The translations under genes and the position numbers were made by a program. Positions 2,621 through 60,603 of a stretch of DNA of 64,000 bases are shown here, piece by piece. Numbering within the stretch: the stretch's first letter is position 1; each line of letters begins with the position of its first letter. This stretch comes from Octopus vulgaris (taxonomy: Eukaryota). The DNA lies in NCBI GenBank assembly GCA_951406725.2, contig OX597815.1, forward strand, positions 214,954,001 through 215,018,000, written 5' to 3'. The notes under the pieces were generated by a model. The model was not told where the DNA came from. It did not search any database and saw only the letters and a program-made list of their open reading frames with translations.

Positions 2621-2798
2621 AGGCAATCATCAATAATCATTATTGTTGGATCATCTCTATTAGCTATAATTAATTAAAACTTGTGTAAACTGAGAAACTA
2701 ATTAATATTTTTCCATAACTACATTAGATGAGATTGGTTTATTCAGTTACATTTGGTATTCAAGATTATATTGTTTATCATATGTAGTATCAATCTTA

Positions 2799-4039
2799 TC
2801 TCTTATTATAAAAGGCAGATTTTATCTGCCTCCCTTTGTCACTTATAGAAATCTACAATATAGGATTTCTTCAATTACAATTTACCTAGCATTTTTAAGA
2901 GTAGAATGCATCGGGTCATGCCAGGTCCAGTTTTTAAAATTTAAACTCCAATTAAGCAAAATTTACAGAAAACTCACATTCAGGTGTGTATGTCAAATGC
3001 TTTTCTTAGTCTGGTTTACAGCACACGCAAACGCACACACACAGTGTGCAACGAATAAACTAAAACTAATTCACTGTGTGTGTGTTGACAGGTAGACAAT
3101 AGAATGCGATGGCGATGTAATATTTGTTTCTGTCTATCACGCTGATAGATACATGAGTAAAATGTATGGCAAGCTAAGAGATAAGAGTGAGTGAAAATGT
3201 TCTTGGAAGAGAGTAAATAGCGACAGAGTGATTTGAGGAAGACTAAACTGAAAGTATGAAACAGTGTTTATGTATAAACAGACGACACTTATATATAGTT
3301 ATGTATGCATCCGTTTAACCCTTTCGTTACCAAACCGCCCGAATTTACCTATTCATATTTAAATGAGAATATCAGAGTAAATCTCTTTAGTACATTCGTG
3401 AAAACACGTATTATACTTCGTAAACACTTCAAATACAGTTTTGTACAAAAATCGAAGTGTAATTTTAATTCCGTGAATTATGGGAGATTTTTTTCCGAAA
3501 TTTGTTCCTATTGTGTTTTCAAAATTTGTAATTCTGACAAAAAATGGATACGAATTTCATTATATCAAGCAGCGAGTCAGAATTCGAAGGATTTTCTACT
3601 GAAGACCTTCATAAATCTAACTCTATGACTGAAAAAAAAAAGCATCTTTATATAAGAGTGAAGTTGTGTGTCTGTCTACTACGATTTAGATTCGTAACTA
3701 CTCCCACATTTTGCGGTGCAGTTTAACCAAAAGCGGGTATCTTATAGTCGTGATTCATATCGAGCCCTTCTGGGTATTAGCGCGCATCTATGATGAGTCT
3801 ACGATTTAAAAAAATTTACCATCATATTTTTCCATTTTAATGCATTTTTTTCGCTTTTATATAAGGGAAGTAACTCTCTAAAAATATCTACGATGTGTCA
3901 ACGATTTAAAAAAAAAATTTACCTTAATTTCTTTTCAATTTTTAATGCATTTTTTGGCTATTTTTTGGCTATAACTCTCTAAAAATGCTTATATAATTAT
4001 TTCCCTTACAACCCGAGCAATGCCGGGCGATACTGCTAG
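2799..4039 (+). mobile_element. Non-autonomous, probably composite Helitron (5' TC starts at 2799 and 3645; 3' hairpin and CTAG at 4036-4039)
   Basis: A|TCTCTTATTATAAAA at 2799 and A|TCTTTATATAAGAG at 3645; subterminal hairpin CCCG-agcaatgc-CGGG (4012-4027) then CTAG|T; internal direct repeat at about 3790-3985. Confidence 0.75.
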
Positions 4040-8597: not shown

Positions 8598-8827
8598 TGA
8601 TAAAAATGGTAAGACACCAAAAGAATGAAAGAGACCTCGATATTATGCAAATAGAGGAATTTGTTTATAAATGTAATATGTGACAATTATTCAATAGCCA
8701 AGATAAAACTCCGAGTTTCAGATGCCAAGGATGGCCGGATAACTGAAGAGATGGCGGCATGGATTTCCACCTCGGCATCCGAAACTCAGAGTTTTATCAT
8801 GGCTACCAAATAATTGTCACATATTAC

Positions 8828-8834
<7 letters not shown>
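8598..8834. mobile_element. Fold-back element (Penelope-like terminus) in a (TA)n tract
   Basis: Inverted arms 8666-8730 and 8770-8834 plus an unpaired tail at about 8598-8665; (TA)n on both sides; contains a hammerhead motif. Confidence 0.75.
8738..8798 (+). ncRNA. Type I hammerhead ribozyme motif
   Basis: GAUAA-CUGAAGA(8743-8749)-stem II GAUG..CAUC-GAAA(8781-8784)-CUC.A.GAG-UU-UUAUC; stem I GAUAA/UUAUC pairs perfectly; predicted cleavage after U8793 (GUU). Confidence 0.75.
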
Positions 8835-8882
<48 letters not shown>

Positions 8883-9258
8883 AGAAATTAATATGTTCAG
8901 TGCACGACAATTTTTCTGTTCAGGTTTCAGCTGTTATTGATGATCATATTATGTATGTATGCACACACACACACGTGTGTGTGTGTATATGTGAAGTACA
9001 TGACTTAGTGGTTAGGGTACTGCACTCATGATCATAAGATTGTGGTTTCAGTTCCTGGATTGGACAATGTGGTGTGTTCTTGAACAACAACACTTAATTT
9101 CTTATTGCTCCTGTGCTAGAAATGAGTATTCCTGCAACAGGACAGTGTCCTGTCCAGGTAGGCAATACATACACCACAGAATCTGAGAAACCAGCCTTAT
9201 AAGTATATGGCCCTAGAAGGATCTTTTATCCTTTTGTCATATGATATATATATATATA

Positions 9259-9713
9259 TTATATTAAATTAGAGATAAAACCACTATTAGGCAAATCAAA
9301 CAATGAAAAACTTAAGCCAATACATAAAATTAATTAATTTATATTATTTTAAATATATATCAAAATTATTAAAAGTTTAATAAAAGATAATGGGTAAAAC
9401 ACTAAACCTCGCTAAGATAAATATTTCAATCACCTGAAGATTGACTGTAACCATAACTCGAATTAATACGAATTGGACAGCCATGAAACGATCGTAGTGT
9501 TTTACTCATTATCTTTTATTAAACTTTTAATAATTTTGATATATATTTAAAATAATATAAATTAATTAATTTTATGTATTGGCTTAAGTTTTTCATTGTT
9601 TGATTTGCCTAATAGTGGTTTTATCTCTAATTTAATATAATATAATATTTTACTATAAAATTGAATTCAATCCTAAATCTGATTTTTCCCTGTAAGTTTG
9701 GATTTATTCCCTA

Positions 9714-9767: not shown

Positions 9768-9837
9768 CACACACATGTATGTATATTTGTGTATGTATGT
9801 GTGTGTGTGTGTATACACACGCATATATATATATATA

Positions 9838-10175
9838 TATTTGAAAGAGGAAAAGAATGACTTCACTGATAGTTCTATCGATTTAATTTTTTAATAATAT
9901 AATTCTACAGTTTGGTTTGTAGATCTGCTAAGTTCTTAGTTAACTTTGGTGGGGAGATTTTTTAAAGATTCTTCGATAACTTTTCTGGAAAACTTTTTGC
10001 ATTCATTGGTGGTGATTGTTGATCCAACGGAAGTTAACAAAGAACTAAGCAGATCTACAAACCAAACTGTAAAATTATATTATTAAAAAATTAAATTGAT
10101 AGAACTACTAGTGAAGCCATTCTTTTCCTCTTTCAAATATACGTAACTGTACCAAGGATCTCACACATTTTCCAA
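9838..10175. repeat. Fold-back element, about 105-bp arms plus short 3' tail
   Basis: Arms at about 9838-9946 and 10031-10140; tail acgtaactgtaccaaggatctcacacattttcca; (TA)n flanks; no hammerhead core seen. Confidence 0.8.
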
Positions 10176-17740: not shown

Positions 17741-19542
17741 CATCATCATCATCATCATCGTTTAACATCCACCTTCCATGCTAGCATGGGTTGGACGGTT
17801 CGACCGGGGTTCTGGGAAGCCAGAAGGCTGCACCAGGCTCCAGTCTAAATTTGGCAATGTTTCTACAGCTGGATGCCCTTCCTAACGCCAACCACTCCGT
17901 GAGTGTAGTGGGTGCTTTTTACGTGCCACCTGCACAGGTGCCAGGCGGGGCTGGCAACGGCCACGGTCAGATTGGTGTATTTTATGTGCCACCGGCACGG
18001 AAGCCAGTCGAGGCGGTGCTGGCATCGGCCACGAGTCGGATAGTGCTTTTTACGTACCACCAGACCAGGGATCCTGGCTGGTTCAATTCGATTTCGATTT
18101 CGCTTGCCCCAACATGTCTTCACAAGTAAAGGGGGTTGGCAAGGGTGCCTGTCGTACGGTCGCATTGGAGTATTTTACGTGCCACGGCCACGAGTCGGAT
18201 AGTGCTTTTTACGTACCACCAGGCCAGGGATCCTGGCTGGTTCAATTCGGTTTCGATTTCGATTTCACAAGCAAAGGGGTTGCATGGGTGCCTGTCAACA
18301 TCGCATTGGAGTATTTTCGTGCAAGCATGGGGATAGGTTGGCAGGGATCCTGGCTGGTCGTCGGATGAGATTTTCATGTCTTATCGATGGGTGTCTGTCG
18401 TCGGATGAGGTTCTATATCGACTTCGCTTGCCTCAACCGGTCTTTGTGTCCAAGGGAGGAAAGGCATTCATAAGTGGGCTGGGCTCACTTGTCCTGCCTG
18501 GTCTTCTCACGTACAGAATATTTCCAAAGGTCTCGGTCTCTGGTCATTTCCTCAGTGAGGCCTAAAGTTCGAAGGTCGTGCTTCACCACCTCGTCCCAGG
18601 TTTTCCTGGGTCTACCTCTTCCACGGGTTCCCTCAACTGCTAGGGATTGGCACTTTCTCACACACCTATCTTCATCCATTCTCGCCACATGACCATACCA
18701 GCGCAATCGTCTCTCTTGCACACCACAACTGATGCTTCTTAGGTACAACATTTCTCTCAAGGTGCTAACGCTCTGTCGAGTATGTACACTGACATTACAC
18801 ATCCATCGGAGCATACTGGCTTCATTCCTCACGAGCTTACGCATGTCCTCAGCAGTCACGGCCCATGTTTCGCTGCCATGTAGCATGGCTGTTCGTACAC
18901 ACGCATCATACAGTCTGCCTTTTACTCTGAGCGAGAGGCCTTTAGTCACCAGCAGAGGTAAGAGCTCCCTAAACTTTGCCCAGGCTATTCTTATTCTAGC
19001 AGTTACACTTTCAGCGCACCCACCCCCACTACTGACTTGGTCACCTAGATAACGGAAGCTATCAACTACTTCTAGTTTTTCCCCCTGGAAAGTGACGGAA
19101 GTTGTTTTCTGCAGATTTTCGGAGGTTAATGCTCCCGAGCATCTGCCACATACAAAAACTATCTTCCCAGTTAGCCTACCTTTCACATTGCTGCACCTCT
19201 TATGTGTCCATAGCTTACACTGGGTACATCTTATAGAGTTTCTACCTACACCTTTTCTACAGATCGAGCAGGGCCATCTTCCTGAAGATATTTGTGGATT
19301 GTCTACCTTTCTACTTATTAGTACTTTGGTTTTAGCTAGGTTGACTCTAAGGCCCCTTGATTCTAAACCCTCCTTCCACACCTGGAACTTCTCCTCCAGT
19401 TCTGATAGTGACTCAGCAATAAGAGCAAGGTCGTCAGCGTAGAGGAGCTCCCAGGGACAGCCTGTCTTGAATTCCTCCGTAATTGCCTGGAGTACTATGA
19501 TAAATAGGAGGGGGCTGAGTACTGAACCCTGGTGGACCCCAA

Positions 19543-19543
<1 letters not shown>
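17741..19543 (-). mobile_element. 5'-truncated RTE-clade LINE with about 740-bp 3' UTR and (GAT)n tail
   Basis: RT C-terminal ORF followed by a 3' UTR shared with many short copies in the window; (CAT)n at 17741-17760 on the plus strand. Confidence 0.92.
18485..19543 (-). CDS. RTE LINE ORF fragment: reverse transcriptase C-terminal half with inserted PHD-type zinc finger
   Basis: Frame is open upstream of the listed start, to 19543: VGVHQGSVLSPLLF...ELLYADDLAL; then CSIC-x10-CTQC-x4-H-x2-C-x14-CGRC; then RTE motifs FRYLG, LHGSETW, RLRWYGHV, RGRGRPRKTW. Confidence 0.92.
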
Positions 19544-19710: not shown

Positions 19711-20239
19711 GTTTTGCAAGATTCCTGATGTAAAATCGAGTATTGAAACAGATATTGTTGTATTTTGGGATGGTCATTTTACTTATTTATTTATCTCTTT
19801 TTTGCCGAATAAACACATACTATGTATATTTTTTCCTTCACTCTTTTATTACTGTTCCTATTTTATTATTTTAACTCATGTCCATTGTCCGGAAATCTTT
19901 CATCACACATCTGTGACCTCTTCAGTGTCACTTTTTGTTTCTGTGTGTATTCTTGCTCCACTTACTCCATTTTGTTCTTCTAAGATGCATGCACACATAA
20001 GGATACACATTTTAGAAGAACAGAATGGAGTAGGTGGAGCAAGAACACACACAGAAACGAAAAGTGTCACTGAAGAAGTCACAGATGTGTGACAAAAGAT
20101 TTCCAGACAATGGACATGAGTTAAAATAATAAAATAGGAACAGTAATAAGCGAGTGAAGAAAAAAATATATATATAGCATGTGTGTTTATTTGGCAAAAA
20201 AATAATAAATAAAATGACCATCCCGAAATACAATAATAT
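19706..20239. mobile_element. Fold-back element, about 235-bp arms, hammerhead-like motif in each arm
   Basis: Arms 19752-19987 and 20008-20239, left tail 19706-19751, (TA)n flanks; CUGAAGA-GUCACA-gaug-UGUGAC-GAAA reconstructable at 19886-19930(-) and 20065-20109(+). Confidence 0.8.
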
Positions 20240-21189: not shown

Positions 21190-21570
21190 CATGTCAGTCT
21201 GATATTATCTGCACACCTTGAATAAGGTGAATAAAATCAAAATAAGCATCAGGATATCAAGTGGTGATGCAGTACGACCGTTTCAAGTGGCTCCATTCAA
21301 TTGAACAATGTAATCATTACATCAATTCAAATGCAGTGCCATCTTCAGATGCACAAATAAATAAATGGAATTCTAACAAGTGGGACACTTTAATATAATT
21401 TTTATCAGATAATATGTCCTACTTGTTATAATTCCATTTATTTATTTGTGCAGCTGGAGATGCCTCTGTATTTAAATTGATGTAATGATTGCATTGTTCA
21501 ATTAAATGGAACTGCTTGGAACAGTTGTACTGCATCACTTCTTGATATCCTGTTGCTTATTTTGATTATA
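21190..21570. mobile_element. Fold-back element, about 155-bp arms, hammerhead motif in each arm
   Basis: Arms 21232-21388 and 21415-21570; minus strand of the left arm reads UGCAU-CUGAAGA-UGGC...GCCA-CUU-GAAA-CGGUCG-UA-CUGCA. Confidence 0.8.
21268..21353 (-). ncRNA. Type I hammerhead-like motif with long stem II
   Basis: CUGAAGA and GAAAC-GGUCG-UA present; stem I UGCAG/CUGCA when the two arms are combined; 3 extra nt before GAAA. Confidence 0.6.
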
Positions 21571-22774
21571 TATATGTATGTGTATAGGTGTGCATGTGTG
21601 TGGATATATATATGTATATATATATCACTAAATCATTTTTATGTTTAGAATCTATTGCTATGTTGCTGATTTTTCTTCTCTGTTATGTCTCTACTATTTC
21701 TAACATTACATTTGATATAAACTTTTTACAATGTTACTAATATTTATTAACACTTGATGACTAGCCATCTCCAATATTTTACTCCATTGAAACATGCAAT
21801 GAAATCAATTTGCATGTCTTTATATATATATATATATATTTATATACATCCTTGTAGATACACACTTCCATTCATCCACCAACATACACACAACACACAT
21901 ACTCACATTCATACACACACATAAATATACAAATGAGAAAGATAAAAAACTAACTCAATACATTCATTTGAAGCTAAAATTTCAGTCTGTTCAAACTCCA
22001 TGAATTTCATGCCTGGTATTTTACATTACTAGAAACAAGAAATGCAAATGAAATGTTTTGCCACCATCTAGTTGGTGTTGCTGATCCGACGTTGATTTTT
22101 TTGCATATCAGATATTTTAACCTTACTCTCTCTTACTCTTCCTCTTCCACTCTTCCTCTTCCTCTCTGTCTCTCTCCCTCTCTTTAAGTGTGTGAGCAAA
22201 CAGTTACATTCGCATGTATGTGTAATGCCTCTCTTTCATTCTTATTCTCTTTATTTATTTGTGATGTGAGTGTGTTTGCCACCAGTGCTAAAACACACTG
22301 TCACCAAAACTGGTTGAATATCCATTCAGCCATGCCGAAACGTCTGTGTCCAAACAGCTGCACTCAATCAACTCAGTTTGGCAAAAGACTCAATATAGCA
22401 ATGGGAAGACTGTCTTCTAATGTTTAGCTCTTTAGCATTCAGATCAGTCTCTCAAATACAATGCTTATTTATTCACATTATTTTGAATTAATCATTCATT
22501 TTCTCATAGCTTCAAGATCTTGATGATGTGACTGTTTATTTTTAGAACAACATTATAGGGCAGGTGTGAGAAGCCAGATCTGGCCAGTTTAAACATAAAA
22601 ACGGAGAATATATCAGCTAGATATGGCCAGTTTGAATGTCAAAGGGTTCTATTTTAAAACATTGGTATTTTGCTTAGCAACAGTTTTTAGTTGGTTGAGA
22701 GTAATTTAATCATTATATTGTACAGTGATTCCAATTATATAGAAACTCCTTCATTTATTTGTTCCATAACTGGC

Positions 22775-33662: not shown

Positions 33663-33709
<47 letters not shown>

Positions 33710-34699
33710 CAAAACTGCTCAGGAAAAATGGAATAGTCTTTGACATTTCAAACCTATGTTCTTATACAGAAAGGAATAAAGAGCAAAAACAGATTGAGAG
33801 ATGAGAGAAAAAAAAACAAGAGAAACAAAAAAAAAGCTATCTTGATTAGCAGTTACACACATTTCCTGCTCAGATAGTGCAGTCATTGGATGGGCTTGTA
33901 TAGCATACTGTGCATGATCCAGCAATCATTCAAGCTCAAATGATATGGCTATTCCATAAAGAAATACAATTTAAAAAATAGGAAAAAAACTACGACAAGA
34001 ATAAAATCTCAATGAAAAGAGCATAACGGTTCTGTTTCTTTAATCCATTAAATGAAGAATATTGTTAATCTAAAAATAAAATTATGCCTAGTGATAGTAG
34101 TTAAATGAGAAAAGACTAAAGTGTGTTAAACTGTGTGTCTAATCTCGGGAGGAGGGTGTCTTCCAGTTCAATAACAGAAACTTGTTGAGAGGCAAACATT
34201 TTGTAAATATTTCTGATCTCAAGCTTAGAAGAATGGTGCAGTTCTTTAACTTAATAAGGATGTGTGTTCTTTCTGCTATACATAACTTGCATTTTGACTC
34301 ATTAATGTATGGCCTAGAACTCTCTATAATGTTCCACTTGATGGTATGTGGTATATAGCTGCCCTTCAGGCTCCAGATTTGGCTTACTACTTCTGTGCTT
34401 TCCTTTTTCTCTACATGATTAAAAGAATATTGGTGGGTGATATATCTCTTAAGATGTAAACACTAAACTTTAAGAATATTTTTCATTTAACAAGTTGAAG
34501 GGACATAACAAGTGTCCTGCTCTTCAACATTTTCTTCTCATTTATTCTCTTTTTTTTTTATTTTTTGTCATTTGAGCCTCAACAGTTGCCAGATTGTGCA
34601 CAGTATCCAATGGAGCTGCAGATGCAAATTAGAAATTAGTCCTAGAGTGCACAATGTTTCTGAAGGTTAGCAATGGTCTTCCTCGGTCACGAGTGGACA

Positions 34700-36145: not shown

Positions 36146-36660
36146 TGTGCCGGTGACACGTAAAAGCACCATCCGTTCGTGGCCGTTTGCCAGCTCTGTC
36201 TGGCCCCCATGTCGGTGGTCGTGACATGTAAAAGCACCATCCGTTCGTGCCCGTTGCCAGCCTCTGTTCTGGCCTTTGCCCCCGTGCCGGTGACATGTAA
36301 AAGCACCATCCGTCCTTTCGTGGCCGTTTGCCAGCTCTGTCTGGCCCCCGTGTTGGTGGCACGTAAAAGCACCATCCGTTCATGTCCGTTGCCAGCCTCG
36401 CCTGGCCCCATGCCGGTGACACGTAAAAGCACCATCCATTCGTGGCCGTTTGCCAGCTCTGTCTGGCACCTGTGCAGGTGGCACGTAAAAAGCACCCACT
36501 ACACTCACGGAGTGGTTGGTGTTAGGAAGGGCATCCAGCCGTAGAAACACTGCCAGATCTGACTGGGCCTGATGAAGCCTTCCAGCTTCACAGACCCCAG
36601 TTGAACCGTCCAACCCATGCTAGCATGGAGAACGGACGCTAAATGATGATGATGATGATG
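36146..36660 (+). mobile_element. RTE 3' UTR fragment with expanded internal tandem repeat
   Basis: About 6 units of gccggtgacacgtaaaagcaccatccgttcgtggccgtttgccagc..., then the standard RTE end and (GAT)n. Confidence 0.88.
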
Positions 36661-36667
36661 ATATATA

Positions 36668-37228
36668 TATAAGAAAAATAAAAAAAAGGTAGAAAATGCT
36701 AAAATAATTTTATCATGAAGAACATTTTAGTACCAGTTTCAGTCTTTGCGACTTTTTCAACTTGGAGTAAAACATGAAAAACAATTAAATTGTGGAAAAA
36801 TTAAATGAAACACTTTAAAAAAAATATTTCCATAGTTTTCAAATGTAAGGGACATTTTCCTTTTTTCCTGTCTGTCTCTGTCTCTCTTTTTAACTCTTGT
36901 GGGTTCTCGGTAGTTAGTAAGCAAACTGCTGCTTAAACAATCAAAAGACAAGAATTCATATCAAACTAGTTGCTGCTAACTACCGAGAACCCACAAGAGT
37001 TAAAAAGAGAGACAGAGACAGACAGGAAAAAGGAAAATGTCCCTTGCATTTGAAAACTATGGAAATATCTTTTTAAAAAGCGTTTTTCATGCTTTACTCT
37101 AAGTTGAAAAAGTCGCAAAGACTGAAACTGGTACTAAAATGTTCTTCATGATAAAATTATTTTAACATTTTCTACCTTTTTTATATTTTCCTTATACATA
37201 TCAACTCGTGTGTTCCTTTTCAACCTTC

Positions 37229-37229
<1 letters not shown>
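36668..37229 (+). mobile_element. Fold-back element, about 220-250-bp arms, variant hammerhead-like motif, 33-nt tail
   Basis: Arms 36668-36918 and 36975-37196; both carry AG-UUGAAAA-AGUC-gcaaa-GACU-GAAA-CUGG-UA-CU; (TA)n flanks. Confidence 0.8.
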
Positions 37230-37260
<31 letters not shown>

Positions 37261-46439: not shown

Positions 46440-47074
46440 ACATTCTTTCACTGCTCTAGGGATAAAATCTGTAGGTTTTTACTCCACTCTAAACGCTTTG
46501 CAACGTTTGTTTTGAAAATAGAGGTTTTCTGATTGCAACCCTCCCATGAAATCCAGCTTTGTACAGCTCCCGATGAACAGTTTTTGTGAAAACTGGGTTC
46601 TCAAGGTAGTCATTAAGCTCTGCAGTAATTTTGGGAGCTGTACTTTTGTGATCCTTTCTAACAATTCGCGTAAGAGTCCAAGGGTCCCTATCTGAAAGAT
46701 TTGGTTTTCTTCCAAAGTTTTGTTTTGATGAGGTGGGTTTTCTTGCTTTCTCAAAGGCTGTCATTGCTTTCGAGACAGTACTTCTTGATACAACAAACAT
46801 TTTGGCTGTTTTCATTACATTACCACCTGCCATACGAGCACCAACAATTTGACCTCTTTGAAAGTCCGATAGATCTGTCATTTTAATGAATTTTAATTAC
46901 CTTTTTCTGATGATATCTGAAAAGAAACAAACAGCAATTTTTGTAAAACATATTAAGCAACACAAATAATAAATCAAAACACATAAAAATAAATAAGCTT
47001 TTGATGGTTTTATAGATATTTTATAATTATGATGCTTTGATGCTGGGTGTTACCATTATTTTGTCCAACCCCTG
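46437..47074 (-). mobile_element. Tc1-family DNA transposon, 5' portion with transposase N-terminus
   Basis: Minus-strand terminus TA|CAGGGGTTGGACAAAATAATGG at 47074; ORF 46489-46881 MTDLSDFQRGQIVGARMAG...VSRSTVSK...GRKPNLSDRD...TVHRELYKAGFHGRVAIRKPL (paired-like HTH); truncated before the DDE domain. Confidence 0.9.
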
Positions 47075-47386: not shown

Positions 47387-47852
47387 TTTCTCACATGTAT
47401 GCATGTATATACATACATGCACAACAAGTTTGACAAGTCACCTATACAGCTAAGAGCATATATACTGCATACGTATGTACCTGTGTGTGTGTCCACCACC
47501 ACTTGACAACCTATATTGGCTTGTTTATGTCTTATAACTCAGCAATGTAGCAATAGAGACTGACAGAATAAGTACTGGGGTCAATTTGTTTAACTAAAAC
47601 TCTTTAAAGTGAACCCCCTGCATGGCCACAATCCAATGACTGAAGCATGTAAAAGATGAAAGATAATGAAGAAATATCATTAATTGTATGTAAAAATACC
47701 ATATCTTCATTTATTTCCTTGGTTTCTATACTAACAGCCAAATACCATTTCAATATACATAAAATCAAAAGTCACAGAATCATGATTATTGTTGCCTCAA
47801 TATATAACTTTGTGTGTCACATATAAAGCACTCATGCTGGAACAACATTAAA

Positions 47853-48197
47853 AGGTACTTTACCTTTTCAAGTACAGATTTAATGAATAATTTTTTGTAA
47901 CTAAACACTTTCAAATTTCGGACACTAGTAGAATGTGTCCTATAAAACACCACCGATAGTTATTGTTGACAAACAACGGCAGTAATTTTATTCAGCTGAA
48001 TACGCATTATTGATTGGTTGAAATTACCAAAATAGGCCTACTTTAACATGAAATAACTTCGAAAATATAAGTTTTTCATAAAAATGCTAAGAGTAAAACA
48101 TGTTTTATATGACACATTCTACCAGTGTCCAGAGTTTGAAAGTGTTTAGTTGCAAAGAATTAGTTTTTAAATCTGTACGTCAAAGGGTAAAGATCCC
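47853..48197. mobile_element. MITE with about 95-bp terminal inverted repeats
   Basis: 47853-47948 mirrors 48101-48197; apparent ATTAAA duplication on both sides; interrupts an RTE 3' fragment. Confidence 0.8.
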
Positions 48198-48786
48198 ATT
48201 AAAAGCACTGGTGCTGGTACCACATAAAAAGCACCCAGTATGCTCTGTGGAGTGGCTGGTGTTAGGAAGGGCATCCAGCCATAGAAACCATGCCTGAATA
48301 ATGGCACCTGGTGCAAACACTGGCCTTACCAGCTCTGATCAAACTATACAGCCATGCCAGCATAGAAAGCAGACATTAAATGATAATGATGATGATGATA
48401 TATACTTTAGAAAGTTTTCATGTGTTATTATTTTCATTGTTCAGTCTTTGATCAACTGTTACTGACTCATAGCTGAAGTATTGAGATTGCTCTTTGCTGC
48501 ATTTGACAGGGTCCAGTTTTATAGTATTCCCACTGTATTGCTATAATAATATTAATATCATCATTATTATCATTATTATATTATCATTTACATCTGATTC
48601 TCCATACTGGCAAGGGTTGGGTAATTTTTCTGCAACAGTGTTTTATGATTGAATGCACTTCCTGTTATCTTTTATGATACAATGTACCTATTCTAAAAAA
48701 CTGGCATACAAACAGTAATATTATATGTGTGTGTGTATATATGTATATGTGTGTGTATATATGTATATATGTGTGTGTAAATACAT

Positions 48787-56525: not shown

Positions 56526-58068
56526 TGTGTACAGTGCTCAGGTGCACTACAACTCATCTAAAGTGTATATATAATCAGGTGTAGTTTTGGCGGATTTCGG
56601 AAAGCACGAGGGCCTTAAAGGATGCAGTGTCATAGCAGTCAACAACTGACGCAGGCAGTTTATTCCATGCTTCAGCAACTCTGAGCGTGAAAAAATGTTT
56701 CCGAAAGTCATGGGAGCTGTGTTGTTTTCTGACTTTGTAGGCATGTCCACGTGTGTTAGACACATGAAGATCAAAAAGGTGTTCAGTGCTGTTGTTGGTG
56801 AGGTGGTTGATAACTTTGTGGGTGTTTACCAAGTCCGTCGCCAGACGCCGGAGCTTCAGTGAATCCATGCCCAGGGAAACAAGGCGCTCAGAATATGGTA
56901 GGTGTCTGATGGAGGGTATGCGTTTGGTTGCACGTCTCTGGACAGATTCCAGGAGGTCAATGTTCTGAGCAAGATAGGGGTTCCAAACTGATGATGCAAA
57001 TTCCAAGTGTGGTCGTACCATAGCTGTATACAGTTTTAAATAGATGGCTGGAGAGCGGCTAACAAAAGTCTTGCTGAGTGATGCCAAGACACCCTCGGCC
57101 TTCTTGACAATTTTAGAGATATGCTTTGTCCAACGCAAATCACTGCTGACAGTGATGCCTAGGTCACGCTCACAAGAGGATTTCTTGATATGTGGAGGGA
57201 GTATGTGGACGCAGGGTTTTTTCTCCCAAAATGCATGGTGGTACACTTGTCCACAGCCAGTTTCAGTTGCCAGTCTGTGATCCATTGCTGCATTGTGTCT
57301 AGGTCTGATTGCAGGAAAGAGTTGTAGACATCAGGATCTGTCCTCTTGATTTCAAGGTACAGCTTGATGTCGTCTGCATATTTCAATACTGTGGCATTCT
57401 TTAAGTTGGCATCTATGTCATTAATGTATGCCACAAACAAGAGGGGACCAAGGATAGATCCCTGTGATACACCCGATGACATCTCATATGGTGTAGAGTG
57501 CTGTCCTAGAACTGTGACTACCTCCTTTCAGCTGAGGATGAAGGATTTCAACCAGTTAAAAAGGTCATCCCTCACACCCATTGCAGAGAGTTTCACCATA
57601 AGCCTTTTGTGTGGCGCAGAGTTGAAAGCCTTAGCAAAGTCAAGGTAGACAACATCCACCCATGAGCTACTGTCAGTGATCTGAGTAATGTCCTCAAGGA
57701 ACTCGACAAGCTGATCACTGCAGTTGGAGTTAGGGACAAATCCATATTGTGAGGGTCGGATGAGACTGCGAGAGCTCCAGAAGTTCCAGAGTGTTTCTCT
57801 GACACACGATTCCATCAGTTTTGCAATACAGCTAGTGAGACTGACTGGGCGATAGTTGACAGCTGATGTGCGGTCGCCCTTTTTGAACAGAGGAATGACA
57901 CTGGCAGTTTTCCACTGCTCCGGAGTAGCACCATTGTTGAGACAGTACTGGAAGAAAATAGAAAGCTGGTGTAAAAGGAAGTACCTGCCACGTTTGAGAA
58001 GCAGGTATGTAACTCCATCGAGACCAGGGGAGGCATAGTTGCGCTTATTTTGAAGGTGACGTCGCAGC
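56492..58068 (-). mobile_element. 5'-truncated CR1-clade LINE with (ATT)n tail, inserted in a family A SINE
   Basis: RT motifs PGLDGV, NYRPVSLTS, YLDFAKAF, GVSQGSILGPLLF, KYADD, ERDLG, RPHLEFASSVWNP, NTRGH, FFTLRV..WNKLP; SINE A halves at 56401-56455 and 58069-58304. Confidence 0.92.
56575..58068 (-). pseudogene. CR1 ORF2 reverse transcriptase, disrupted
   Basis: Three track ORFs join into one RT: in-frame stop at 57528-57530 and a frameshift near 57200. Confidence 0.88.
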
Positions 58069-58302
58069 ATGTATGTATGTATGTATGTATGTATGTATGT
58101 ATGTATGTATGTATGTGTGTGTATATATTTGTGTGTCTGTGTTTGTCTCCCCAACATCGCTTGACAACTGATGCTGGTGCGTTTATGTCTCTGTAACTTA
58201 CCAGTTCGGCAAAAGAGACTGATAGAAAGAATAAGTCATAGGGTCGATTTGCTCGACTTAAGGCGGTGCTCCAGTATGGCCACAGTCACATGACTGAAAC
58301 AA

Positions 58303-58338
<36 letters not shown>

Positions 58339-59900
58339 GTAACAGGCTTTCACACAGTTTCTTTTTATCAAATTCACTCGCAAAGCATTGGTCAGTCCAG
58401 TCAGTAGAAGACACTTACCCAAGTCCCCTCACTGTAGGACTGAATCCAAAACTATACGATTGCAAAGTGAGCTTCTTGATCCCACAGCCATGCCTGTATC
58501 TGTTAGTGAATATTTCAATATATTAAAACTTGAAAAGTGATGGGGAACAAAAAGAGAATCAAATTAAAAATAATTTTATTAAGTCAAAATTCAAACTCTA
58601 ATTGAAATTCAGTGTTGTAATAAATTAACTTTGAATTCATAAAAGTATTTTTTTTTGTATTCAATTTGTTTTTGATTTGAAATCTTTTAATTTTCAACAT
58701 GTTTTTGTTTCTATTTTCAATTCAAAACAATTCTTTTAAAACTTGAATCCAGCTTCATTTCTTTTATTTAACCCTTTGCTTGTCCAAATCATTTTCATGA
58801 GTTTGTCCTAAATGTCCATGCTTGTTTTCAGACTTTCAGTAAGCCCTTGCTTCATACCTTCTGAGTAATAAAGAGCTTTCCTTTCATAAGTCTCTGTTAA
58901 CTCTGATAAATGAAAACAATTGGGAATATACATGGTATATGATGCATGGACTCCAGAGAAATATGTCCTGTTTAACACGTGATACAAAGCACAAGCAAAG
59001 GATTAAGAATCAACTAAAGTATATTATTAGAAAATACAGCTAATTATGATTGTATATAATCATAAAATATTAGTAAACCAATTAAGTAATTGAATGATAT
59101 TCTCTATTATGTTTAATAACATTTGAAATTTTAGTTGGGTAGCAAACTACATTGCTCTTATAGCCTCGTACACAACAATTTTATACATTTTATACATGGT
59201 TGCCAGTTTTGTGTTCTCTCTGGGCAAGGCACATAATTCTATTTGATACACTCTCTTGTCAGAAAATATATTTTTGTGCTTCTCTGCTATAGAGTGGTTA
59301 ATACTAAGAAAATTTAATAATAATAATAATTATAATGATAATAATGATAATAATAATAATAACAATAATAATAACAATAATACTGATGACGGTGATGATG
59401 GTTTTTGATTTAGGCACAAAGCCAACAGTTTTGAAGAAAAACTATACACGTATAATATATAAGGGTCCAAATGTCTCTTAGACATGTTTGGACTGGTCTT
59501 AAGTTTGTTAAAATTGCTCACATATATGTATGTATAAATATCTGCATGTATACACACACATAAATACATGCATATACATATATACATCATCATCATCATC
59601 GTTTAACGTCCGTTTTCCGCGCTAGCACGGGTTGGACGGTTCGACCGGGGTCTGGGAAGTCAGGGGCAGCACCAGGCTCCAGTCTGATCTGGCAGTGTTT
59701 CTACGGCTGGGTGCCCTTCCTAACGCCAACCACTCCGCGAGTGTAGTGGGTGCTTTTTACGTGCCACCTGCACAGGTGCCAGGGGGTGTCTGGCATCGGC
59801 TACGATCGGTTGGTGCTTTTAACGTGCCACCGGCACGGAAGCCAGCCAATATATTTATATATATAATAATAATAATAAAACATTGTGTACAGTGCTATAT

Positions 59901-60088
59901 ATATATTAAATTAGAGATAAAACCACTATTAGGCAAATCAAACAGTGAAAATCATAAACCAATACATAGAAATAAAATTAATTAATAAAAAATATATAAA
60001 ATATAAAATTCAAAATTTTAAATATTTAAATTGAAGTTAAAATTTTAAAAATTATTTAAATTAATGATTTATACTTATTAATTTTTAA

Positions 60089-60120
<32 letters not shown>

Positions 60121-60315
60121 TTTTTTTTAAATATATATATATAACTATCAAAAAGTATTAAAAGTTTAATATAAGATAAAGAATAAAACTCTTTATCTTA
60201 TATTAAACTTTTAATACTTTTTGATAGTTATATATATATTTAAAAAAAATTTTTTTAATTTAAAAAATAAAATAAAATAAAAATAAAAAAATAAATAATA
60301 ATAATAATAATAATA

Positions 60316-60349
<34 letters not shown>

Positions 60350-60603
60350 TTAAAAATTTATAAGTGTAAATTATTAATTTAAATAATATTTTAAATTTTA
60401 ACTTTAATTTAAATATTTTAAATTTTGAATTTTATTTTTTATTAATTAATTTTATTTCTATGTATTGATTTATGATTTTCACTGTTTGATTTGCCTAATT
60501 GTGGTTTTATCTCTAATTTAATATATATATATTTATACTATAAAATTAGATTTAATCCTAAATCTAATTTTTCTCTGTAAGTTTGGATTTACTCCCTAAT
60601 ATT
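59901..60603 (+). mobile_element. Fold-back element of the 9259 family, nearly loopless
   Basis: Arms at about 59901-60189 and 60190-60530; same outer arm boundary and same 3' tail (actataaaatt...ctgtaagtttggattt..ccctaat) as the 9259 copy. Confidence 0.85.

What the first reader, a model, noticed from the sequence alone, without database searches (positions are those of the whole stretch)
36728..37135. Both arms carry the same non-canonical core UUGAAAA in a perfect hammerhead frame
Seen: AG-UUGAAAA-AGUC-gcaaa-GACU-GAAA-CUGG-UA-CU is identical in both arms. Relative to CUGAAGA the changes are C3>U and G8>A. Established: C3 and G8 form a Watson-Crick pair in the active hammerhead, and the U3-A8 swap preserves that pair. 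Inference: a natural compensatory U3A8 variant inherited from the parent element rather than decay, which standard CUGAnGA searches would miss.
Basis: partly seen in the sequence, partly recalled or inferred. Interest (0 to 1): 0.7.

Follow-up and report, generated by a model that had tools for sequence, protein, structure and literature searches.

The report
Penelope-type hammerhead with known U3-A8 swap
Two head-to-head tail fragments of an abundant Penelope-like jumping gene each carry a tiny self-cutting RNA motif (hammerhead) with a swapped core base pair; the swap appears to be typical of this repeat family, but the same swap has already been described in such elements, so this is a real but ordinary example.

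Summary
The motif is real and identical in both arms (37102-37135 +, 36729-36762 -). A matching descriptor finds only these 2 sites in the window and none in 150 shuffles. The arms are the outward-pointing 3' ends of a ~560-nt head-to-head insertion in (TA)n with a one-sided tail, the usual truncated Penelope-like (PLE) layout, probably Hydra-like. About 2,700-3,100 contigs per run were laid on the arm from three organisms. No alternative letter at U3 or A8 is among the 40 strongest of 154 differences, so UUGAAAA is very likely the family majority. Most copies also carry a perfect stem III palindrome (ACCGGU, 78-90%), which this copy has lost. But U3-A8 is published for natural hammerheads (PMC3088659) and for PLE minimal hammerheads, including the same UUGAAAAA (PMC4209133). 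The frame is not perfect: 2-bp stem I and A-U at 10.1-11.1. Identity between arms that are 95% alike is expected (P about 0.18). Here each sense ribozyme would be buried in a long hairpin, so this copy is probably inert. Cleavage is untested.

The parts
36663..37226 (.). Whole insertion: two 5'-truncated PLE-like 3' ends head to head (palindrome), 3' ends pointing outward, between (TA)n tracts
   Evidence: Inverted repeats I1, I2 and I4; arm alignment; TA tracts at about 36661-36671 and 37229-37250
36663..36917 (-). Left arm (3' end without tail), sense on the minus strand
   Evidence: 215 of 226 aligned positions identical to the right arm, plus a 28-nt indel
36729..36762 (-). Left minimal type I hammerhead motif, U3-A8 core; predicted cut after GUA (between 36731 and 36730)
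36918..36975 (+). Asymmetric centre (58 nt) between the arms; also repeat-family sequence, at lower depth
   Evidence: 58 nt between the I2 arms; contigs cover it in X1, X2 and X9
36976..37201 (+). Right arm, sense on the plus strand
37102..37135 (+). Right minimal type I hammerhead motif, U3-A8 core; predicted cut after GUA (37133/37134). 37129 is T here but C in 78-90% of family depth
37083..37111 (+). Predicted upstream hairpin that pairs the A-rich core with a U-rich stretch (an off-fold, right arm)
   Evidence: RNAfold minimum-energy structure; prediction only
37128..37178 (+). Predicted downstream hairpin that sequesters the cleavage-site strand; U16.1 paired with P 0.99 (right) and 0.96 (left)
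   Evidence: the 3' strand is also seen in family loose-end consensus; prediction only
37202..37226 (+). One-sided tail of about 25 nt, present only beyond the right arm, followed by (TA)n
   Evidence: Absent at the left arm. Family depth continues over 37189-37226, and loose ends at 37178 and 37224 run into TA/CA repeats

Best explanation
This is a dead, 5'-truncated, inverted insertion of a high-copy Penelope-like retroelement family, most likely of or near the Hydra clade. Its 3' region carries a minimal type I hammerhead whose family form has a U3-A8 core pair, an A-U pair closing stem II and a palindromic ACCGGU stem III. In the parent element two such motifs, from tandem copies or two RNAs, would pair through the palindrome to form a dimeric ribozyme and cut after GUA about 70-90 nt from the 3' end, probably slowly or with protein help (inferred from other PLE hammerheads). 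One insertion event laid down two copies of the 3' end head to head, which is why both arms carry the same motif and the same non-family letter at 37129. At this locus a read-through transcript from either side makes the antisense arm first and folds into a ~250-bp hairpin that buries the only sense ribozyme, so this copy is probably inactive. Shown: sequence, layout, family abundance, family palindrome. Inferred: U3A8 majority, clade, cleavage, mechanism.
For: Descriptor 2 hits against 0 of 150 shuffles. 2,839, 2,664 and 3,108 contigs laid in X1, X2 and X9, three organisms. 37129 T>C at 86%, 90% and 78% restores a perfect palindrome; the self-duplex goes from -3.2 to -8.3 kcal/mol. Of the 40 listed differences only 3 fall in the 34-nt motif: 2 at the ends of loop II and 1 in the palindrome; none in the core or stems. 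Inverted 5'-truncated copy, one-sided tail and (TA)n target are PLE hallmarks (PMC8557442 passages). Opposite-strand minimal hammerheads 100-700 bp apart and U3-A8 cores are described in PMC4209133. In File S2 of PMC8557442, 18 of 26 Hydra-clade rows have U just before GAA, 12 of 26 cut after A, and the octopus Hydra-1 row opens stem II with A-U as tabulated. The window holds a Hydra-type endonuclease tail at 34142-34462 (41% identical over 106 aa to P0006) and other hammerhead-bearing palindromes with C3G8. Whole-element hairpin -329 kcal/mol.
Against: No RT or endonuclease frame is linked to this element, so the PLE and Hydra assignment rests on layout and ribozyme style only. A 39-nt likeness to the 3' end of the 34-kb Hydra-type fragment was not above shuffles (score 38 against a mean of 35). 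Stem I is 2 bp, shorter than in all 26 Hydra rows (3 bp or more), and its predicted pairing probability is <=0.0002. The highly conserved G10.1-C11.1 pair is absent. All 26 Hydra rows have C3G8. No Rfam hit. The concentration of variation in loop II is weak evidence (2 of 3 sites). RNA run X23 shows no pile-up of read ends (89 reads, 65 under 90% alike), although fragmented cDNA is not expected to show one.
Confidence: 0.8

Rival explanations
1. The family's hammerhead is a fossil. An ancestral C3G8 ribozyme drifted to U3A8 (and lost stem I and G10.1-C11.1) under AT pressure in a master copy before amplification, so the swap is inherited but no longer under selection for cleavage.
For: 2-bp stem I with negligible predicted pairing, and strong off-folds on both sides. 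AT-rich surroundings (GC about 0.37). PMC8557442 notes that Naiads spread without hammerheads, and PMC11167929 finds cleavage unnecessary for insertion in vitro.
Against: Both changes at 3 and 8 keep the pair, and every other core letter, four Watson-Crick pairs in stem II and a perfect palindrome are kept in the family majority. Stems I of 2 bp occur in Drosophila virilis Penelope.
Confidence: 0.25
2. The family consensus is canonical CUGAAGA, and this locus (or a small subfamily) decayed by two transitions that were then copied into both arms.
For: The arms do share one non-family letter (37129), which shows that shared decay happens. T>C and A>G differences occur at unlisted places in the laid contigs.
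Against: A majority C3 or G8 would be expected among the listed rows, as 37129 and 37165 are; neither position appears in any of four runs.
Confidence: 0.06
3. Chance resemblance to a hammerhead in an AT-rich foldback or MITE-like repeat unrelated to Penelope-like elements.
For: No Rfam hit; no linked ORF; A-rich cores are the ones that arise by chance in shuffles (all relaxed-shuffle hits were U3A8).
Against: 0 of 150 shuffles with the standard descriptor. The family majority improves the fit with a perfect palindrome. The tail is one-sided, and many family copies end directly in (TA)n, as for PLE 3' ends.
Confidence: 0.05

Closest known systems
Minimal hammerheads (min-HHR) of metazoan Penelope-like elements, U3-A8 families of Schistosoma mansoni (Cervera and De la Pena 2014, PMC4209133)
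   Same: Type I minimal architecture, palindromic stem III, U3-A8 core (2 of 56 motifs in Fig. S3 have U3A8, one of them UUGAAAAA; 1 has U3G8), pairs on opposite strands 100-700 bp apart, U-rich 5' and AU-rich 3' flanks
   Different: Here stem II is 4 bp and closes with A-U before GAAA, not G-C after an unpaired base; stem I is 2 bp; the stem III insert is 4 nt; the cut follows A; different host group
Hammerheads of Hydra-clade PLEs, including Hydra-1_Obim (Craig et al. 2021, PMC8557442, File S2)
   Same: (TA)n target, ribozyme about 100-200 nt from the 3' end, U before GAA (18 of 26 rows), frequent A17 (12 of 26), short stem III, an inverted 5'-truncated copy noted for Penelope-13_HM
   Different: All 26 rows have C3G8 and stems I of 3 bp or more; three short motifs of this element had no match in the held, cut part of the supplement; no ORF is linked here
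Natural U3-A8 hammerhead core variants (Perreault et al. 2011, PMC3088659)
   Same: Same compensatory change, reported in several natural examples and stated to be active in vitro
   Different: The section read does not tie those examples to PLE 3' ends or to dimer-type minimal motifs

Membership tests
Minimal type I hammerhead (PLE min-HHR) | Core U4 G5 A6 N7 A9, G12 A13 A14, A15.1-U16.1, H17 | tested here: met
Minimal type I hammerhead (PLE min-HHR) | Watson-Crick pair between positions 3 and 8 | tested here: met
   U3-A8 in both arms; no alternative among 40 of 154 listed family differences
Minimal type I hammerhead (PLE min-HHR) | Palindromic stem III region for dimer formation | tested here: met
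   Perfect in 78-90% of family depth; two G-U pairs in this copy
Minimal type I hammerhead (PLE min-HHR) | Stem II of 3 or more pairs | tested here: met
   4 Watson-Crick pairs; P(10.2-11.2) 0.97 in the left-arm context, 0.09 in the right
Minimal type I hammerhead (PLE min-HHR) | G10.1-C11.1 after an unpaired base (consensus trait, with known exceptions) | tested here: not met
   A-U here. U-U and other exceptions are in PMC3088659 and Hydra rows, so I treat it as typical rather than defining
Minimal type I hammerhead (PLE min-HHR) | Stem I closing the core | tested here: inconclusive
   Only 2 bp, pairing probability <=0.0002; an 8-bp distal helix is predicted in the left-arm fragment; 2-bp precedent in D. 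virilis
Minimal type I hammerhead (PLE min-HHR) | Self-cleavage after N-U-H (as dimer) | not testable with these tools
   No read-end pile-up in X23, uninformative
Rfam hammerhead families | Covariance-model match | tested here: not met
Endonuclease-positive Penelope-like element | Inverted 5'-truncated copy forming a palindrome | tested here: met
Endonuclease-positive Penelope-like element | 30-40 bp tail at one end only | tested here: inconclusive
   A one-sided family extension exists but is about 25 nt
Endonuclease-positive Penelope-like element | Dispersed high-copy family with hammerhead near the 3' end | tested here: met
   U3 lies 97 nt from the short end and 122 nt from the tail end
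Endonuclease-positive Penelope-like element | RT plus GIY-YIG ORF in the parent | not testable with these tools
   None at this truncated locus; no genome held
Hydra clade of PLEs | Insertion into (TA)n | tested here: met
   (also true of Naiad and Neptune)
Hydra clade of PLEs | Clade-specific RT and endonuclease motifs | not testable with these tools
   No linked ORF; the Hydra-type fragment at 34142-34462 could not be tied to this family

The most novel reading that the evidence does not exclude
A high-copy Hydra-like PLE family shared by three related animals has fixed a doubly atypical hammerhead (U3-A8 plus A10.1-U11.1, 2-bp stem I). It is flanked by two family-wide off-folds: an upstream U-rich strand that pairs the A-rich core and a downstream strand that pairs the cleavage site. 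Together they would form a switch that lets cleavage happen only co-transcriptionally, in dimers, or when the element's own protein remodels the RNA. The A at position 8 would then be selected both for the 3-8 pair and for the off-fold. It would be the first U3-A8 ribozyme in the Hydra clade as far as the tables I saw go, and a natural test case for protein-gated PLE ribozymes.
Probability: 0.12. Interest if true: 0.5.

Novelty: new member of a known kind. Interest (0 to 1): 0.2.

Why it matters
Modest. It adds a host lineage, and probably a PLE clade, to the list of natural U3-A8 hammerheads, and it is a reminder that CUGAnGA-only screens undercount PLE ribozymes (PMC8557442 screened cores with 'cuganga'; Rfam misses this motif). 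Since U3-A8 screens have been published since 2014, it does not change what is known. The open question it touches, whether and how PLE minimal hammerheads cut in vivo, is no easier to test with this copy than with described ones; the family-majority form, not this locus, would be the one to assay.

Tried and rejected
No whole genome is held, so copies could not be aligned directly. Pattern scans leaving positions 3, 7 and 8 free: metagenome contigs gave 2 hits, both GC-rich bacterial coding regions with no other likeness to the element, rejected as chance; viral contigs 0; prokaryote genomes 0. Rfam gave no hammerhead hit; the miRNA-precursor matches under E 1e-3 reflect the perfect hairpin and the TA/CA repeats and lie far below gathering scores. 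No second copy of this family lies in the window. A 29/39 likeness to 33719-33757 was not above shuffles. A 49-aa open frame across the centre includes microsatellite-derived residues and was not pursued. The word-index protein search for the 34-kb fragment found nothing, the full HMMER search found 1,577 relatives, and Pfam did not name it. A search with an RTE-like RT fragment did not name the host (best named hits 56%, a hydrozoan). Lunse et al. 2017 (PLE hammerhead variants cleaving as dimers) is not held; I saw it only as cited in PMC6765202, and it may already list this family or cephalopod U3-A8 motifs. Four of five look-ups among earlier scan notes returned nothing.

Full report
Observation. 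The window is AT-rich animal DNA full of microsatellites and retroelement fragments. No tool named the host. The neighbouring repeats look octopus-like to me, which is recalled and untested. It reads as a type I hammerhead: 2-bp stem I, UUGAAAA core, 4-bp stem II with a 5-nt loop, GAAA, a 4-nt insert, UA, and a predicted cut after GUA. A descriptor accepting C3G8 or U3A8 finds exactly these 2 sites in 64 kb on both strands and none in 150 block-wise dinucleotide shuffles; a looser version averages 0.047 hits per shuffle. The motif is therefore not chance. That it is the same in both arms adds nothing: the arms match at 215 of 226 aligned positions, which makes 34 identical letters unremarkable (P about 0.18). 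Rfam does not recognise it.

What the element is. The motifs sit in the arms of a palindrome of about 560 nt (36663-37226) with a 58-nt asymmetric centre, (TA)n on both sides, and an extension of about 25 nt beyond the right arm only. Both hammerheads point outward, 97 nt from the short end and 122 nt from the tail end. PMC8557442 (passages, section 11 and parts of the supplement seen) describes this layout for Penelope-like elements: 5'-truncated copies, an inverted copy beside them, a 30-40 bp tail at one end, and (TA)n targets for the Hydra, Naiad and Neptune clades. PMC4209133 (main text parts 1-3 of 4 and supplement parts 1-2 of 3 seen) describes minimal hammerheads 100-700 bp apart on opposite strands as remains of truncated PLEs. 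No ORF is linked to this insertion, so the assignment rests on layout and ribozyme style.

Is U3A8 the family form? No genome is held, so I laid three DNA runs from organisms A, B and C and one RNA run on the right arm plus centre, at 80% likeness. 2,839, 2,664 and 3,108 contigs were laid; all bins are covered, and summed depth over the core is 41,000-144,000 against about 18-79 for single listed contigs. The tool warns that this is no copy number, but the family is plainly abundant in all three organisms. Of 154 differences the tool lists 40. Three fall in the motif: 37115 and 37119, the first and last bases of loop II (6-29% in DNA; either change alone would add a pair to stem II), and 37129 T>C (86%, 90%, 78%). 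None is at U3, A8, 10.1, 11.1 or any other core or stem position. The weakest listed rows have a top share of 20-30% in some run, so I infer that C3 and G8 are each below roughly 30% and that UUGAAAA is the majority. The 37129 result is independent support for a ribozyme: the family letter turns the stem III region into the perfect palindrome ACCGGU, the hallmark of dimer-type PLE hammerheads (PMC6765202 passages), with a self-duplex energy of -8.3 against -3.2 kcal/mol for this copy. Both arms here carry the minority T, at a CpG, which fits one template copied twice, or later homogenisation. The RNA run gave 89 reads on both strands, 65 of them under 90% alike, and no pile-up of ends; fragmented cDNA cannot be expected to show a cut, so this counts neither way.

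How it most likely works. In the parent RNA, two motifs would pair through the palindrome to complete stem III and cut after GUA near the 3' end. This is inferred from PMC4209133, where a S. mansoni minimal hammerhead was inactive as a monomer and weakly active as a dimer or trimer, and from PMC11167929 (passages), where an anole PLE hammerhead cut only with the element's protein, needed the 3-8 pair, and was not required for insertion in vitro. U3-A8 keeps the 3-8 pair and is stated to be natural and active in PMC3088659 (passages and section 8 seen). Against efficient activity: stem I is 2 bp with pairing probability at most 0.0002, stem II closes with A-U instead of G-C, the cleavage-site strand is predicted to pair with a downstream stretch (P 0.96-0.99), and in the right arm the core pairs with an upstream U-rich stretch. 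In the isolated left-arm fragment, stem II and an 8-bp distal helix of stem I do form in the lowest-energy fold. At this locus the arms lie on opposite strands, so one transcript holds only one sense ribozyme, made after its own antisense, and the whole element folds into one hairpin (-329 kcal/mol). I expect this copy to be inert.

Clade. File S2 of PMC8557442 (part 2 of 59 of a cut supplement) lists 26 Hydra-clade hammerhead rows: 18 have U directly before GAA, 12 cut after A, and the octopus Hydra-1 row opens stem II with A-U as tabulated. This resembles the present motif more than the G-C-closed minimal consensus does. All 26 have C3G8, however, and stems I of at least 3 bp. The window also holds a Hydra-type endonuclease tail at 34142-34462 (-) (1,577 relatives at E<=0.001; 41% identical over 106 aa to the 713-aa P0006; resemblance to the Hydra alignment judged by eye) and at least four other hammerhead-like motifs with C3G8 cores in other palindromes (8743 +, 9434 +, 19925 -, 21348 -). 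I could not link the 34-kb fragment to this family. Hydra-like is a lead at perhaps 60%, not a membership.

Comparison with what is known. The U3-A8 swap in PLE minimal hammerheads was reported in 2014, with about 1,300 hits in S. mansoni from a dedicated descriptor. Fig. S3 lists 2 U3A8 motifs among 56, one with the same UUGAAAAA, and 1 U3G8 motif. Searches for this family in print were 'octopus' with 'hammerhead ribozyme' (5 papers, 4 listed, none on such a motif by title and abstract start), 'hammerhead' with 'U3-A8' (1 paper), 'hammerhead C3U G8A' (0). PMC13282606, an octopus repeat annotation, has no occurrence of 'ribozyme' or 'hammerhead' (passages). bioRxiv 10.64898/2026.07.22.740005 (part 1 of 5 seen) concerns tandem retrozymes, which this is not. 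Lunse et al. 2017 could not be read and may already cover this family; the cut supplement of PMC8557442 and the unseen third part of the PMC4209133 supplement may also bear on it.

Verdict. The variant, the host element type and the inverted arrangement are all described. This is a new member of a known kind; interest 0.2.

Noticed in passing
window 8644-8856: Palindrome with a well-formed type I hammerhead on the plus strand (C3 at 8743): C3G8 core, 5-bp stem I, long stem II, 3-bp stem III like Hydra-clade rows; next to (TA)n
   Followed up: partly
window 9255-9644 and 59896-60531: Two palindromes whose outer arms look alike by eye; the first has a central C3G8 hammerhead (C3 at 9434) with U-U at 10.1/11.1, a perfect 6-nt palindromic insert and a cut after A
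   Followed up: partly
window 19821-20174 and 21231-21571: Further palindromes with hammerhead-like C3G8 motifs (19925 -, 21348 -), the latter with a very long stem II; they look decayed
   Followed up: partly
window 34142-34462 (-) and 33700-34140: C-terminal tail of a Hydra-type PLE endonuclease frame, followed by a 3' region ending in (TA)n, with what looks by eye like a decayed hammerhead near 33930-33850
   Followed up: partly
window 36987-37068: This inner part of the arm is laid at higher depth than the core and many contigs continue 5'-ward into a different sequence, suggesting subfamilies or a second repeat sharing the segment (loose ends)
   Followed up: no
window 18485-19543 (-), 56575-58235 (-), 46489-46896 (-): RTE-like RT fragment (Pfam PF00078 relatives), a second broken LINE-type RT, and a Tc1-like transposase fragment; the last two named from recall of the translations
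   Followed up: no
window 9836-10141 and 47848-48202: Other long inverted repeats without an obvious hammerhead in my scans
   Followed up: no
window 36148-36660: SINE-like repeat with five tandem ~65-nt subunits ending in (ATG)n, directly left of the element
   Followed up: no
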